Below are positions 1-16,794 of a stretch of DNA of 16,794 nucleotides, one piece after another. A program made the position numbers and the translations under genes. The number at the start of each line of letters is the position of its first letter. Within the stretch, counting starts at the first letter, position 1. Source of the DNA: a virus (taxonomy: Duplodnaviria; Heunggongvirae; Uroviricota; Caudoviricetes); IMG/VR virus record IMGVR_UViG_2547132127_000011; one strand, given 5' to 3'. The notes under the pieces are model-generated. The model saw nothing but the letters and a program-made list of their open reading frames with translations. It did no database searches and was not told the DNA's origin.

Positions 1-1230
1 ATGAGCAGAGCACTTAACAAACTGAGCGATACACAGCTGAGGAAAATCAACGGCACACCCGCCCAAAAAACAGCCTTTCTTAATGACGGTGGAAACCTGA
101 GCGTCAGGCATTCAACCAGTGGCCTTTTAACCTGGTATTTCACTTACAGGGCCGGAACGGGAAGGGGGGCACCACCGGAACGCATTAAGCTGGGAAATTA
201 TCCTGATCTGAGCCTGAAATCAGCCAGGGAAAAAGCCGCCCAGTGTCGCGCATGGCTGGCAGAGGGGAAAAATCCACGTCATGAGCTTAATTACACCGTA
301 CAGGAAGCGTTAAAGCCGGTAACGGTTGGCAATGCGCTCACCTACTGGCTTGAGTCGTACGCAAAGGAAAACCGCGTGGATTATGCCGCCCTGAAAAAGC
401 GCCTTAATAATCACGTAATACAGCACATTGGTGCTATGCCGCTGGATAAATGCGAGCTACGGCACTGGCTGGCCTGTTTTGACCAGGTGGCAAAGCGAAC
501 GCCTGTTACTGCCGGATTCTTGCTACAGACGTGCAAACAGGCGCTTAAGTTCTGCCGGAGGCGGCGCTATGCAATCAGCAACGTTCTTGATGATATGAGT
601 GTGGCGGACGTTGGGAAAAAACCGGATATAAGCGAGCGTGTCTTAAGCACCAAAGAACTGGGCGAATTATTGCAGGCACTGGACAAAAAAATATTCTCCC
701 CCTACTACATCGCGTTAATCCGCCTCCTGATTGTGTTCGGATGCCGGACGGTAGAACTGAGGTTATCGGAGATCAGCGAGTGGGATTTTACCGAAATGCT
801 CTGGACCGTGCCGAAAGAACACAGCAAAACGAAGGTGGCAATATTCCGGCCCATACCGGAAGCAATACTGCCGTTCGTCACGCAGCTGGTGGAGCAGAAC
901 AGGCACACGGGCTTATTGCTGGGGGAAGTGAAACAGGAAACAAGCGTGTCGCAGTACGGCAGATTAGCGCACAGGAGGCTAAATCACCCTCACTGGTCAC
1001 TACATGACATCCGGCGCACCTTTACAACGATGCTGAACGATTTAGGCGTGGATCCTCACGTCGTGGAGCAGCTTACAGGCCACCAGATGCCAGGAATGCA
1101 GCGAGTTTATAATCATTCCCGTTATCTGGATGCTAAACGCAATGCGCTGGATATGTGGACGGAGCGGTTAGGGATACTGGCGGGAACACATGAAAACGTA
1201 ACCACGCTACCAGTAGCCAGAAGAAAATAA
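1..1230 (+). CDS. int: Tyrosine recombinase / integrase, P4-like
   Basis: 409-aa ORF with C-terminal catalytic region (HDIRRTFTT...LTGHQ...VYNHSRY) typical of the phage integrase family; N-terminal region resembles P4-type integrases. ORF starts at window position 1, so the true start and the left attachment site lie at or beyond the window edge. Confidence 0.88.
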   Translation: MSRALNKLSDTQLRKINGTPAQKTAFLNDGGNLSVRHSTSGLLTWYFTYRAGTGRGAPPERIKLGNYPDLSLKSAREKAAQCRAWLAEGKNPRHELNYTVQEALKPVTVGNALTYWLESYAKENRVDYAALKKRLNNHVIQHIGAMPLDKCELRHWLACFDQVAKRTPVTAGFLLQTCKQALKFCRRRRYAISNVLDDMSVADVGKKPDISERVLSTKELGELLQALDKKIFSPYYIALIRLLIVFGCRTVELRLSEISEWDFTEMLWTVPKEHSKTKVAIFRPIPEAILPFVTQLVEQNRHTGLLLGEVKQETSVSQYGRLAHRRLNHPHWSLHDIRRTFTTMLNDLGVDPHVVEQLTGHQMPGMQRVYNHSRYLDAKRNALDMWTERLGILAGTHENVTTLPVARRK

Positions 1231-1285
1231 TTTTTTTCGTGTTTTTTCAGTATGCGCATACTGGATATGCGAACAGATACAACGT

Positions 1286-1325
1286 GCAACAATGAGCAAC
1301 AATGCGGAACAACTACGAACAAGAG
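1286..1325. promoter_or_regulatory. Four tandem 10-bp units each with AACAA core (GCAACAATGA GCAACAATGC GGAACAACTA CGAACAAGAG); candidate protein-binding array
   Basis: Read directly: AACAA at 1288, 1298, 1308 and 1318, exactly one helical turn apart. Its reverse complement (TTGTTCGTAG TTGTTCCGCA ...) closely matches the array at 6982..7010. Confidence 0.4.
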
Positions 1326-1419
1326 GTGAAAAAGTGTACAGATTTATAAGTAGCTGATTTTTAATGTGTTACTGATTTTTTATACACTAGCGAATCACTC
1401 TTTAAATAGCGAGAAAAAA

Positions 1420-1451
1420 GGCATGAAACAATATTTCATGCCTTTGTATTA
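1420..1451. terminator. Hairpin GGCATGAAA-caatat-TTTCATGCC flanked by A-run upstream and T-rich tract downstream; candidate bidirectional intrinsic terminator
   Basis: Perfect 9-bp inverted repeat with 6-nt loop followed by TTTGTATT; about 190 bp downstream of the int stop. Confidence 0.45.
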
Positions 1452-1604
1452 ACGTGAATTTAAAGGATTTTATCCTGATTATTCCTCTTTCTGTAAACCA
1501 TACGGCCTCAACATTTGCCAACTCTGAATCATCCTGACACAATCAGACACATCCCAACGCAATAGAACACGAAATAACTCTTTAAGAAACGAAAGGGGGC
1601 AATA

Positions 1605-1793
1605 GTGTTAAGCACTGATCGGTTTATACGTGAAAAAGAATGCGAAAAGCTAACAGGCCTTAGCCGCTCATGCCGCTACCGCCTGGAAAAGGCCGGACAA
1701 TTCCCATCACGTCGTAAACTTGGCGGTCGTTCCGTTGGCTGGTCTTTATCCGAGGTTCTGGCCTGGAAGGATAGCTGCAAGGCAGTTCATTAA
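1605..1793 (+). CDS. alpA: AlpA-family transcriptional regulator (prophage CP4-57 regulatory protein family)
   Basis: 62-aa ORF, GTG start preceded by AGGGGG; motif LTGLSRS..YRL...G.FP....LGGRSVGW..SEV..W is the AlpA helix-turn-helix signature; sits immediately downstream of int as in P4-like elements and PICIs. Confidence 0.8.
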   Translation: MLSTDRFIREKECEKLTGLSRSCRYRLEKAGQFPSRRKLGGRSVGWSLSEVLAWKDSCKAVH

Positions 1794-6981: not shown

Positions 6982-7010
6982 TTGTTCGTGGTTGTTCCAC
7001 GTTGTTCACT
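6982..7010. promoter_or_regulatory. Three 10-bp-phased TTGTTC units (TTGTTCGTGG TTGTTCCACG TTGTTCACTG) about 215 bp upstream of the capsid start
   Basis: Read directly; 15-mer TTGTTCCACGTTGTT (6992..7006) is repeated exactly at 15201..15215; array is the reverse complement of the AACAA array at 1286..1325. Confidence 0.4.
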
Positions 7011-7224
7011 GAGCGGATCGGCATATTTTACCCGAACTGAATCATGATTATTCTCGCCCGTGGTGCCAGGACGCTGGGGCCACTTTCCCGCCTGTTAATG
7101 TGCTCGCCAATATTCATTACCAGGCGGGAAAACGATCGGTGCGATTACTGATTTCCTTATGAAAAACGGTTGAGTGTTTGCCGCGTCCTGGAGTTCCTTA
7201 CTTAACCCCAGGACTTTTTTTATG

Positions 7225-7233
7225 CAGAGAATA
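7225..7233. repeat. IS1 target-site duplication, left copy (CAGAGAATA)
   Basis: Identical 9-mer at 8002..8010 immediately flanking the other IS1 end. Confidence 0.9.
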
Positions 7234-7248
7234 GGTAATGACTCCAAC

Positions 7249-15333: not shown

Positions 15334-16794
15334 TTATTCATCTTTCGGCGCAGAATGCTGGCGACCAAAAATCACCTCCATCCGCGCACCGCCCAGCATG
15401 CTCTCTCCGGCGACGATTTTACCCTCATATTGCTCGGTGATTTCGCGGGCTACCGCCAACCCTACACCTTGCCCAGGGCGTAAAGTATCAACCCGTTGAC
15501 CACGGTCGAAAATGACCTCTCGCTTGCTTAATGGAATACCGGGGCCATCATCCTCGACCACAATATAGAGATGCTCGTCGGTTTGCCTTGCAGAAATTTC
15601 GACAAACTCGAGGCAATATTTACAGGCATTATCCAGCACGTTGCCCATCACCTCGACAAAATCGTTCTGCTCACCGACAAAGCTGATCTCTGGCGAAATA
15701 TCGAGAGAGATATTGACCCCTTTGCGTTGATACACTTTGTTCAGCGCTGAGGTGAGATTGTCCAGCAGTGGGGCGACCGGATGCAGCTCGCGGCTGAGCA
15801 ATGTCCCGCCGCGCATACTGGCACGATGCAGGTAGTAGCCAATTTGCTGTGAAATGCGGCTGATTTGCTCCAGCATTACCGGCTCAGCATCACTGACGCT
15901 CATCTTTTCACTACGCAGAGAACGCAGCGTACTTTGCAGCACCGCCAGTGGCGTTTTCAGACTATGGGTCAGGTCGGTGAGCGTCGTACGGTATTTGTCG
16001 TAACGTTCGCGTTCACTTTTTAACAATCGGTTCAGGTTTCGTACCAGACTGGTCAGTTCTCGCGTTGTGGCTGGATTGAGCAATTCGCGGTTATGTTCTT
16101 CCAGTTCGCGGACTTCTTTTGCCAGGGCTTCGATGGGGCGTAAACTCCACCAGGCGGCGACCCACAGCAGCGGGATCACTAACAGCAGATTGGCTGAGAG
16201 CACATAGATAAACCAGCTCCAGACCATATAGGAACTTTTTAGCTCCACCGGAATGGTATCCACCACCACAATGGTTAATTTTGGCATCCGCGATGTTGCC
16301 GGGTAGACGTTTACCGCCACCGAGTGGGTCATCTCCGCGTCGTCATCATCTTCCCGCACTTCCTGCAACTGTTGCTGTATCGAATGATCTCCACTCAGCA
16401 AGAGGCTGGTATCGTTAACATCCGCTTCAATTTCATGAAAACCATTCGATTTCAGCCAGTCAGGCTGGATCATTTTCATCAGCCAGGGCACGTCACGTTG
16501 CGCCCATAAAAGCTGCCCGTTCTCATCATAAATTAGCGTCATGGTGGGGCTTTGCTTGTCGATATTTTCGGGTAACTCGACATGCAACTTATTGTTTTCC
16601 CACTGCGCAAGGGTATAGAACAGATTGCTCTCGCCACGTAACAGCCGAAACGTAGTTTTATCGAAACTGACGCTATAACCGATCAGCGCGACCATTCCGT
16701 AGGCAAGCGAAAGCACCAGTACTACCGCTGCCGTTGCCAACAGAAAACGTACCCGCAGCGAGAGCGGGAAAAAAAGACGCAGTAATTTTTTCAT
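15334..16794 (-). CDS. phoQ: Sensor histidine kinase PhoQ (PhoP/PhoQ two-component system)
   Basis: 486-aa ORF whose translation ([63 protein letters not shown]...EDDDDAE...[17 protein letters not shown]...) I recognise as E. coli PhoQ, with periplasmic acidic patch, H-box and ATP-binding motifs; complete gene, start codon at the window end. Confidence 0.97.

What the first reader, a model, noticed from the sequence alone, without database searches (positions are those of the whole stretch)
1286..1325. The same 10-bp-phased TTGTT/AACAA array occurs at three island loci in different orientations
1286..1325 reads GCAACAATGA GCAACAATGC GGAACAACTA CGAACAAGAG. Its reverse complement (TTGTTCGTAG TTGTTCCGCA TTGTTGCTCA TTGTTGC) nearly matches 6982..7010 (TTGTTCGTGG TTGTTCCACG TTGTTCACTG) and 15191..15220. 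One-helical-turn phasing implies a protein bound cooperatively on one DNA face. Candidates are AlpA, the RHH protein or the integrase arm-binding domain, which would link control of int/alpA, the head operon and the right end.
Basis: seen in the sequence. Interest (0 to 1): 0.65.

Follow-up and report, generated by a model that had tools for sequence, protein, structure and literature searches.

The report
AlpA excisionase binding-site arrays in a PICI
The phased TTGTT repeats are real and conserved; they are most likely the docking sites of the island's small AlpA protein, which would link cutting the island out of the chromosome to switching on its own gene and the capsid genes.

Summary
TTGTT(C) units at exact 10-bp spacing occur at 1279-1322 (minus strand, 5 units), 6982-7011 and 15191-15220. 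Chance expects 0.01 such hits; 5 overlapping hits were found.

The window is a capsid-forming PICI satellite inserted at the 3' end of phoQ. A fourth array lies just upstream of int, outside the window.

The arrays are conserved in about 70 related islands at five chromosomal sites. The motif is kept while the spacers drift.

They track an AlpA-type protein, not the integrase:
- They persist when the integrase N-domain changes, or when the integrase is swapped.
- They are absent from a sister PICI that lacks alpA.
- Islands that keep only the capsid-promoter array carry a second alpA paralog.

The adjacent doubled 12-mer (GGTGTAGTTAAT x2) tracks the integrase instead.

The experimentally mapped sites of the related excisionase TorI (prophage KplE1) have the same core (GTTCG) and the same 10-bp phasing.

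Best reading (0.7): these are cooperative AlpA binding arrays. They would serve excision at both att arms, alpA autoregulation, and activation of a weak capsid-operon promoter. No binding experiment exists.

This is a new member of a known kind (dual-function excisionase sites such as those of TorI, Cox and Apl). Interest is moderate.

The parts
1..1230 (+). Integrase gene: tyrosine recombinase with an N-terminal Arm-DNA-bind_3 domain.
   Evidence: Pfam PF13356, PF00589 and PF22022. Annotated as an integrase in homologues.
1276..1325 (-). Array 1: five TTGTT(C) units at 10-bp spacing, inverted relative to the other arrays. It lies 46 bp 3' of the int stop and about 280 bp upstream of the alpA start.
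   Evidence: Conserved with 3-7 units and drifting spacers in about 70 loci.
1417..1445 (+). Stable hairpin between array 1 and alpA (A-run, stem, then TTTG). It could be the int terminator or an alpA leader element.
   Evidence: Fold -15.1 kcal/mol, z = -5.1. Conserved in L007-L009, with changes on both arms.
1515..1543 (+). Best sigma-70-like match upstream of alpA: TTGCCA-17-CACAAT, with a TG before the -10.
   Evidence: Consensus scan. The sequence block is conserved in L007-L009. Not shown to be functional.
1605..1793 (+). alpA: 62-aa winged-helix protein, the proposed binder of the arrays.
   Evidence: Pfam PF05930, E = 5e-18. AF2 model pLDDT 87. Best folds are GIsul2 excisionase, RdfS, Pukovnik Xis and TorI. 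The TorI DNA-binding residues Y28 and R45 align with AlpA Y25 and R42 (PMC3509656).
6968..7011 (+). Array 2: conserved TTTTGTAAATTAT followed by three units, TTGTTCGTGG TTGTTCCACG TTGTTCACTG. The units are centred about -76, -66 and -56 from the inferred late transcription start.
   Evidence: Conserved 212-257 bp upstream of the HK97-type capsid gene in more than 100 cf-PICI contigs, with the 10-bp phase kept in degenerate units.
7027..7054 (+). Inferred capsid-operon (late) promoter: TTTACC-16 nt-TATTCT.
   Evidence: Conserved as TTTAC[ACT]-16-TATnnT in an alignment of 19 diverse cf-PICIs. The strict consensus scan did not call it. Inference only.
7060..7083 (+). Conserved hairpin at the predicted 5' end of the late transcript.
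   Evidence: Fold -17 kcal/mol. The stem is kept through compensatory changes: CCAG/CTGG here against CTCA/TGAG in other cf-PICIs.
7185..7221 (+). Hairpin plus a run of 7 T that abuts the capsid ATG (7222). It looks like a terminator.
   Evidence: Fold -14.1 kcal/mol, z = -4.5.
15191..15230 (+). Array 3 (attR arm): TTGTGTCTAT TTGTTCCACG TTGTTTCATA plus a degenerate fourth unit, about 96-141 bp from the att core.
   Evidence: The same module sits upstream of int in the attL arm. Conserved at five different integration sites.
15234..15257 (+). Doubled 12-mer GGTGTAGTTAAT GGTGTAGTCAAT: the probable integrase arm-type sites.
   Evidence: Occurs only in the two att arms. It changes as the Int N-domain changes. 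Its architecture matches the HE-PICI doublet at -81/+132 (PMC10111431).
15326..15335 (.). att core GGACATATTT, which overlaps the phoQ stop codon.
   Evidence: Comparison of the empty K-12 site with both junctions.

Best explanation
The TTGTT(C) arrays are cooperative, head-to-tail binding sites for the island's AlpA protein. AlpA is a 62-aa winged-helix excisionase (recombination directionality factor) that also acts as a transcription factor.

**Proposed mechanism (inferred).** When a helper phage induces alpA, AlpA would do three things.
1. It fills the arrays in both att arms, next to the doubled 12-mers that the integrase N-domain binds. This bends the DNA and drives excision.
2. It fills the inverted five-unit array between int and alpA. 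This would contribute to the published positive autoregulation of alpA.
3. It fills the three units centred about -56, -66 and -76 of a weak promoter (TTTACC-16-TATTCT). This would switch on the capsid and packaging operon.

**What is shown.** The arrays, their phasing, their positions, their conservation and their co-occurrence with alpA.

**What is inferred.** AlpA binding, the promoter assignment, and the direction of regulation.

In this copy the capsid gene is dead (an IS1 insertion plus a stop codon). Here the late array controls a defective operon.
For: **1. Real and selected.** 5 hits against 0.01 expected. The same four positions recur in about 70 loci. Motif positions are 90% identical and spacers 57% across diverged array types. 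Unit number varies from 3 to 7 with the phase kept.

**2. Experimental precedent.** The RDF TorI of prophage KplE1 has five cooperative sites in attL. Three of them are 2 nt apart, giving a 10-bp period, and they abut the -35 of PintS. Their cores are GTTCG/GATCG/GTCCG (PMC2951348). The sequence read here is caGTTCGtcatgGTTCGcttcaGATCG. Core, phasing and place are the same as in this island.

**3. AlpA is of that protein kind.**
- Pfam Phage_AlpA.
- 26% identity to TorI, with the TorI DNA-binding residues Y28 and R45 conserved (PMC3509656).
- The AF2 model best matches excisionases: 8c3t (TM 0.83), RdfS, Pukovnik Xis and TorI.

**4. Natural experiments.**
- In the L089 group the Int N-domain is only 60% identical and the doubled 12-mer changes to TGTGTGGTCAGT. 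The TTGTTCG arrays and the AlpA helix and wing stay.
- L090 has an integrase only 22% identical and keeps array 2, with an AlpA 70% identical.
- L212 has no alpA, but has the same Icd, YlcI, DUF4222, primase, SSB and late genes. It has no arrays.
- cf-PICIs with a foreign int module and no arm arrays keep array 2 and carry a second alpA paralog.

**5. [quoted passage not shown] That island has the same int-alpA module (PMC6092414; L007).
Against: - There is no binding data for any PICI AlpA.
- In EcCICFT073 AlpA did not change Pint-lacZ expression, although the attL array overlaps the int upstream region.
- Array 1 lies 190-270 bp upstream of the best promoter match for alpA and is inverted, so its mode of action is unclear.
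- Non-capsid PICIs with the same AlpA have no array before their late genes.
- HE-PICIs, whose AlpA is 56% identical, have no arrays. So the motif is not universal to the family.
- CP4-57, the founding AlpA element, shows no such array.
- The related loci share ancestry, so they are not independent.
- The scan that collected array-2 relatives required the first unit exactly.
Confidence: 0.7

Rival explanations
1. The arrays are arm-type sites for the integrase N-terminal domain, like the tandem P'1-P'3 sites of lambda. Under this reading the internal copies are decoys or autoregulatory sites.
For: - The integrase has an Arm-DNA-bind_3 domain.
- Arrays lie in both att arms within about 150 bp of the core, in direct orientation.
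- Tandem arm sites at about 10-bp spacing are known for lambda (general knowledge).
Against: - A better arm-site candidate sits next to each arm array. This doubled 12-mer occurs only in the arms. It diverges in step with the Int N-domain: the same motif at 81% identity, TGTGTAGTCAGT/GGTGTAGTCAGT at 64%, TGTGTGGTCAGT at 60%, TGTATTGC at 46%. The published HE-PICI doublet has the same architecture.
- The arrays do not change with the Int N-domain.
- Array 2 persists with integrases of 22-42% identity.
- Arrays 1 and 2 are 1.3 kb and 7 kb from the core.
Confidence: 0.12
2. A host protein binds the arrays, for example an OmpR-family response regulator that recognises decamer direct repeats. TorR boxes (CTGTTCATAT) look similar.
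For: - The units resemble tor boxes. This rests on my recollection of the TorR literature and was not tested.
- Degenerate units in distant cf-PICIs read nTGTTCAnnn or nnnTTCAnnn.
- Array 2 occurs with several different AlpA types.
Against: - The arrays are absent from an alpA-less PICI in the same host species with otherwise similar modules.
- The arm arrays travel with the int-alpA module across five integration sites.
- Their position in att arms next to integrase sites is that of RDF sites.
Confidence: 0.07
3. The arrays are iterons, or sites for another island protein such as the primase/Rep, the PerC-like protein or the YlcI/YnfO-like protein.
For: - Phased direct repeats are typical of iterons.
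- A PerC-like gene lies just upstream of array 2.
Against: - The replication genes differ among islands with identical arrays: primase, RepA helicase, DUF927.
- No PerC gene is annotated in L008, L010 or L011, which have the arm arrays.
- L212 keeps YlcI, Icd, DUF4222, primase and SSB but has no arrays.
Confidence: 0.05

Closest known systems
TorI binding sites in attL of prophage KplE1/CPS-53 (Panis et al. 2010, PMC2951348)
   Same: - Small winged-helix RDF.
- Several cooperative sites, with a three-site block at a 10-bp period and core GTTCG.
- The block lies just upstream of the integrase promoter in the att arm that carries int.
- Integrase arm sites lie next to it.
   Different: - TorI sites are described on attL only. 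Here arrays are on both arms and at two internal places.
- TorI represses intS, whereas AlpA was reported not to affect Pint in EcCICFT073.
- TorI and AlpA are only 26% identical. TorI does not reach the Pfam AlpA model.
Dual-function excisionases: P2 Cox, 186 Apl, P4 Vis, Pf4 XisF4
   Same: One small RDF binds phased direct repeats both at att and at promoters, so excision is coupled to a transcriptional switch. For XisF4 this comes from PMC7379572. For Cox, Apl and Vis it rests on general knowledge.
   Different: Those proteins act at early or immunity promoters. Here the extra target is a structural (capsid and packaging) operon of a satellite, plus the RDF's own gene. Cox and Apl belong to different sequence families.
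Lambda Xis X1-X1.5-X2 micro-filament
   Same: Three head-to-tail winged-helix monomers at about 10-bp spacing next to an integrase arm site, bending the arm (general knowledge).
   Different: Lambda has a single array in one arm and no promoter-activation role.
HE-PICI doubled attP motif TGTATTGC x2 (Williams lab, PMC10111431)
   Same: The neighbouring doubled 12-mer here has the same design. One co-oriented copy lies about 86 bp upstream of the core centre and another about 141 bp downstream. The published distances are 81 and 132 bp.
   Different: This match concerns the 12-mer, not the TTGTT arrays. HE-PICIs lack the arrays.
Pseudomonas aeruginosa AlpA antiterminator (PMC7969949)
   Same: A small winged-helix regulator whose target operons have an intrinsic terminator just upstream of the first gene. 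Here a hairpin plus T7 abuts the capsid ATG.
   Different: Its single binding element lies between the -35 and the -10, not in phased arrays upstream of the -35. No sequence relation to this AlpA was detected.

Membership tests
RDF (Xis/TorI/AlpA-type) binding-site arrays | Three or more short direct repeats, head to tail, at about one helical turn. | tested here: met
   3-5 units at exactly 10 bp at each place.
RDF (Xis/TorI/AlpA-type) binding-site arrays | Located in an att arm within about 150 bp of the core, next to integrase arm-type sites. | tested here: met
   Array 3 lies 96-141 bp from the core and abuts the doubled 12-mer. The same module is in the attL arm. Arrays 1 and 2 are extra, internal copies.
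RDF (Xis/TorI/AlpA-type) binding-site arrays | A cognate small winged-helix RDF is encoded by the element. | tested here: met
   AlpA matches PF05930. Its predicted fold matches excisionases.
RDF (Xis/TorI/AlpA-type) binding-site arrays | The sites co-occur and co-vary with the RDF rather than with other element proteins. | tested here: met
   Caveat: the loci are related by descent.
RDF (Xis/TorI/AlpA-type) binding-site arrays | Direct, cooperative binding of the RDF to the repeats. | not testable with these tools
   This needs EMSA, footprinting or ChIP. The only support is by analogy with TorI.
Integrase arm-type sites | Confined to the att arms. | tested here: not met
   Arrays also occur at 1276-1325 and 6982-7011, which are 1.3 kb and 7 kb from the core.
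Integrase arm-type sites | The sequence changes with the integrase N-terminal domain. | tested here: not met
   The arrays are unchanged at 60% Int N-domain identity, and array 2 is kept at 22% Int identity. The doubled 12-mer does change.
Replication-origin iterons | Specific to, and co-varying with, the initiator protein; next to an AT-rich unwinding region near rep. | tested here: not met
   Identical arrays occur with primase, RepA-helicase and DUF927 replication genes. They are absent from L212, which has a primase.
Capsid-forming PICI (cf-PICI) | int, alpA and primase plus own HK97 capsid, protease, portal, connectors, HNH, TerS and TerL; no tail or lysis genes; about 15 kb. | tested here: met
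   Gene content by homologue annotation and Pfam. The island spans from upstream of int to 15335. In this copy the capsid gene is broken by IS1 and a stop codon.
P. aeruginosa AlpA-type antitermination | The binding element lies between the -35 and the -10 of the target promoter. | tested here: not met
   The units lie upstream of the inferred -35.
P. aeruginosa AlpA-type antitermination | An intrinsic terminator between the promoter and the first gene, which the regulator overrides. | tested here: inconclusive
   A terminator-like hairpin plus T7 is present at 7185-7221. Readthrough cannot be tested here.

The most novel reading that the evidence does not exclude
AlpA bound at array 2 is more than a classical activator. 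From the array it would load onto RNA polymerase, which then reads through the structured leader and the hairpin-T7 terminator that abuts the capsid start codon. It might do the same at the hairpin upstream of alpA. The PICI excisionase would then be a DNA-loaded antiterminator as well, as was shown for the unrelated Pseudomonas AlpA.
Probability: 0.1. Interest if true: 0.75.

Novelty: new member of a known kind. Interest (0 to 1): 0.45.

Why it matters
AlpA is known to be the master switch of Gram-negative PICIs. In the papers I could search, neither its DNA targets nor the way capsid-forming PICIs turn on their own capsid genes is described.

These arrays give a concrete, testable AlpA regulon with four targets: both att arms, alpA itself and the late promoter. 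They also give a candidate late promoter that is conserved across more than 100 cf-PICI contigs.

The analysis separates the probable integrase arm sites (the doubled 12-mer) from the probable excisionase sites. That separation helps in annotating att sites, and in engineering PICI-based delivery vehicles.

Tried and rejected
- **AlpA scan of genome contigs.** It returned only 3 loci. This wasted the single scan of that collection.
- **Protein search with AlpA.** It returned 19 mostly near-identical proteins.
- **Rfam.** No hit in the window.
- **Strict promoter scans.** Nothing was found at array 2 or in the attL arm. The late promoter was inferred from a multi-island alignment instead. I could not place Pint or PalpA with confidence.
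- **CP4-57, the original AlpA element.** It has no comparable array, so the motif is not general to the family.
- **HE-PICIs.** They have no arrays next to their doubled motif.
- **att arms of the island with a foreign integrase plus AlpA (L090/L307).** They could not be read because the contig ends too soon.
- **Paper search for PDB code 8C3T.** It returned irrelevant papers.
- **Unit logo.** It is anchored on TTGT, so its first four columns are circular. Only positions 5-7 are informative.
- **Considered and rejected.** Iterons, PerC-like or YlcI-like binders, and chance.

Full report
**1. What the window is**

The window starts at the ATG of a tyrosine integrase gene (1-1230). The integrase has Arm-DNA-bind_3 and Phage_integrase domains. 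The genes that follow are:
- alpA (1605-1793, Pfam Phage_AlpA);
- a DUF4222 gene and a primase;
- an SSB-like gene and a PerC-like gene;
- an HK97-type capsid, protease and portal;
- connector genes, HNH, TerS and TerL.

It ends inside phoQ.

Homologous E. coli islands lie between roxA and phoQ. Comparison with the empty K-12 site gives the att core GGACATATTT. This core is at 15326-15335 and overlaps the phoQ stop codon.

The gene content is that of a capsid-forming PICI (cf-PICI; bioRxiv 10.1101/2022.09.08.507074).

This copy is decayed. An IS1 (7234-8001, with a 9-bp target duplication) splits the capsid gene after codon 4. The gene also has an in-frame stop codon. The nearest relative found is Shigella flexneri SFBU1023 (L003). 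It is 99.8% identical and lacks the IS1.

**2. The observation**

The three arrays exist as described.
- The three-unit pattern with at most one mismatch hits only these places: 5 overlapping hits against 0.01 expected, and 0 of 200 shuffles reach 5.
- Array 1 has five units on the minus strand (cores 1279-1322).
- Arrays 2 and 3 are on the plus strand.
- The unit is better written TTGTTC(C/G) (only positions 5-7 of that logo are free of anchoring).

A fourth array of 4 units lies about 50-90 bp upstream of the int ATG, just outside the window (L001 and L003).

Both att arms therefore carry the same module of about 67 bp. It consists of 3-4 TTGTT units followed by a doubled 12-mer (GGTGTAGTTAAT x2). 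The two modules are in direct orientation. Relative to the core centre, the arrays lie at about -141 to -112 and +87 to +126. The 12-mers lie at about -98 to -75 and +130 to +153.

**3. Conservation**

The arrays recur in E. coli islands at several integration sites:
- roxA/phoQ, including the prototype EcCICFT073 (L007) and an O157:H7 island (L006);
- abgR/smrA (L008);
- yifB (L009);
- cspD/clpS (L010, L011);
- a frmR-side site (L083-L089).

They also recur in about 70 IMG/VR contigs that encode a close AlpA.

Array 1 varies from 3 to 7 units, and its spacers differ between types. In register, motif positions are 90% identical and spacer positions 57% (p = 1e-10). This is the pattern expected when selection acts on a phased protein-binding motif.

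**4. Which protein: natural experiments**

(a) *L089 group.* The Int N-domain is 60% identical, with changes on its beta-sheet strands. The doubled 12-mer becomes TGTGTGGTCAGT. The TTGTTCG arrays stay, and so do the AlpA helix 3 (R..RY.lEK) and wing (LGGRSVGW).

(b) *The 12-mer follows the Int N-domain, not AlpA.*
- L010 and L011 have 78-81% Int-N identity and only 57-60% AlpA identity, yet their 12-mer is almost unchanged, at most T to C at position 9.
- L091 has 64% Int-N identity, and its doublet is TGTGTAGTCAGT GGTGTAGTCAGT.
- HE-PICIs have 46% Int-N identity, and their motif is TGTATTGC.
- The Williams lab described that HE-PICI doublet at -81/+132 and suggested it binds integrase arm domains (PMC10111431).

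(c) *L090/L307.* The integrase is only 22% identical and belongs to a different clade. The island also has an HTH_17 Xis-like gene and an AlpA 70% identical to this one. It keeps array 2 upstream of its capsid gene.

(d) *L212.* This PICI at tRNA-Ile has that foreign integrase and the Xis-like gene but no alpA. Its Icd, YlcI/YnfO, DUF4222, primase, SSB and late genes are like those of L011. It has no TTGTT array at all. Its arms carry a different doublet, GGTATCCTATAGGTATCCT. This excludes the backbone proteins, and an 'RHH-like' YlcI, as binders.

(e) *cf-PICIs with an HE-type int module.* L107, L256 and L270 have no arm arrays but keep array 2. They carry two tandem alpA paralogs. The second paralog is 60% identical to the AlpA of this window.

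(f) *Replication genes.* They differ among islands that have identical arrays, which argues against iterons.

**5. Experimental precedent**

TorI is the RDF of prophage KplE1. It binds five cooperative sites in attL. Three of these sites are separated by 2 nt and abut the -35 of PintS. Their cores are GTTCG, GATCG and GTCCG (PMC2951348; PMC3509656).

I read that sequence in K-12 as caGTTCGtcatgGTTCGcttcaGATCGTTGACA. Its core and its 10-bp period are the same as in the arrays of this island. Its position, in the att arm just upstream of the integrase gene, matches the attL-arm array.

AlpA and TorI align at 26% identity. The two TorI residues shown by mutagenesis to matter for attL binding, Y28 and R45, align with AlpA Y25 and R42.

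The AlpA model (pLDDT 87) best matches these structures:
- the GIsul2 excisionase 8c3t (TM 0.83);
- RdfS;
- Pukovnik Xis;
- TorI;
- BldC and MerR-type winged helices.

**6. Function at each place**

*Published data.* For EcCICFT073, which has the same int-alpA module and arrays, AlpA activates its own promoter. It does not change Pint-lacZ. When overexpressed it triggers int-dependent excision and replication (PMC6092414). In Vibrio PICMIs AlpA behaves as an excisionase (PMC10803314).

*Arm arrays.* I infer that they serve excision.

*Array 1.* I infer that it contributes to alpA autoregulation. The mechanism is unclear, for two reasons:
- the array is inverted;
- it lies 190-270 bp upstream of the best promoter match (1515-1543), with a stable hairpin in between.

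*Array 2.* Nineteen diverse cf-PICIs were aligned. The alignment shows these conserved elements, in order:
- TTTTGTAAATTAT;
- three phased units;
- TTTAC[ACT], then 16 nt, then TATnnT;
- a hairpin kept through compensatory changes;
- TGGTTTCACGTC;
- the capsid ATG, 212-257 bp downstream of the array.

In window coordinates the -35 is 7027-7032 and the -10 is 7049-7054. The units are then centred near -56, -66 and -76. That geometry is typical of an upstream activator at a weak promoter.

Non-capsid PICIs with the same AlpA lack array 2. Array 2 therefore belongs to the capsid-forming late module.

**7. Rivals and caveats**

- Integrase arm sites (0.12), a host response regulator such as TorR (0.07) and other island proteins or iterons (0.05) are each disfavoured by the natural experiments above. 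None is excluded without binding assays.
- The related loci are not independent samples.
- The array-2 collection required an exact first unit.
- The family-wide claim fails for HE-PICIs and for CP4-57.

**8. Novelty**

The kind is known: phased binding sites of a dual-function excisionase, as for TorI, Cox, Apl, Vis and XisF4. I found no description of these arrays for PICIs, nor of any link between AlpA and the cf-PICI capsid promoter.

I file the finding as a new member of a known kind, with moderate interest.

Noticed in passing
window 15234-15257; also L003 8351-8374 (upstream of int, outside the window): A doubled 12-mer, GGTGTAGTTAAT GGTGTAGTCAAT, occurs only in the two att arms, co-oriented, about 86 bp upstream and about 141 bp downstream of the core centre. 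It changes in step with the integrase N-domain. It matches the design of the published HE-PICI TGTATTGC doublet. These are probably the integrase arm-type sites.
   Followed up: yes
window 7234-8001 (IS1); 7225-7233 and 8002-8010 (target duplication); 8824-8826: An IS1 is inserted after codon 4 of the capsid gene, with the 9-bp duplication cagagaata. The capsid reading frame also has an in-frame stop codon. This cf-PICI copy can probably no longer make its own capsids. The 99.8%-identical S. flexneri locus L003 lacks the IS1.
   Followed up: yes
window 7027-7221: A conserved leader of the capsid operon. It comprises the inferred promoter TTTACC-16-TATTCT, a 5' hairpin (7060-7083) kept by compensatory changes across cf-PICIs, and a hairpin plus T7 (7185-7221) that abuts the capsid ATG and looks like a terminator. 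This hints at control after initiation.
   Followed up: partly
window 14785-14825: A second phased repeat: GTGAC four times at 10-11 bp spacing (cGTGACggagaGTGACaaccaGTGACacaccGTGACaaaaag), downstream of TerL and the last small ORF. It is also present in L001 and in the unrelated-site island L010. It could be a packaging (cos or terminase) site or another protein site. This was not investigated.
   Followed up: no
window 1417-1445: A strong hairpin (z = -5.1) flanked by an A-run and by TTTG, between array 1 and alpA. It is conserved in L007-L009, with changes on both arms. It could be a bidirectional terminator for int or an alpA leader element.
   Followed up: partly
window 1248-1263: A perfect 16-bp palindrome, CAGTATGCGCATACTG, lies between the int stop codon and array 1. 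It is present in the window-type islands but not in the CFT073-type intergenic region.
   Followed up: no
window 14570-14745: A segment of about 175 bp is absent from the homologous island L001. It is bounded by similar short sequences (gcgcaaaattgcgc and gcgcaaaaatgcgcgg).
   Followed up: no
L107, L256, L270, L291, L207, L117 (IMG/VR cf-PICI contigs): cf-PICIs with a heterologous int module carry two tandem alpA paralogs. This suggests a split between an excision-specific AlpA and a late-promoter AlpA. In the window's island a single AlpA would combine both roles.
   Followed up: partly
L321 2455-2485 (K-12 KplE1 attL), compared with the window arrays: The published TorI sites (GTTCG at a 10-bp period), the arrays here and, from memory, the TorR 'tor boxes' (CTGTTCATAT decamers) all share a TGTTC-like core. 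TorI is also a TorR inhibitor. I did not examine whether this resemblance means anything.
   Followed up: no
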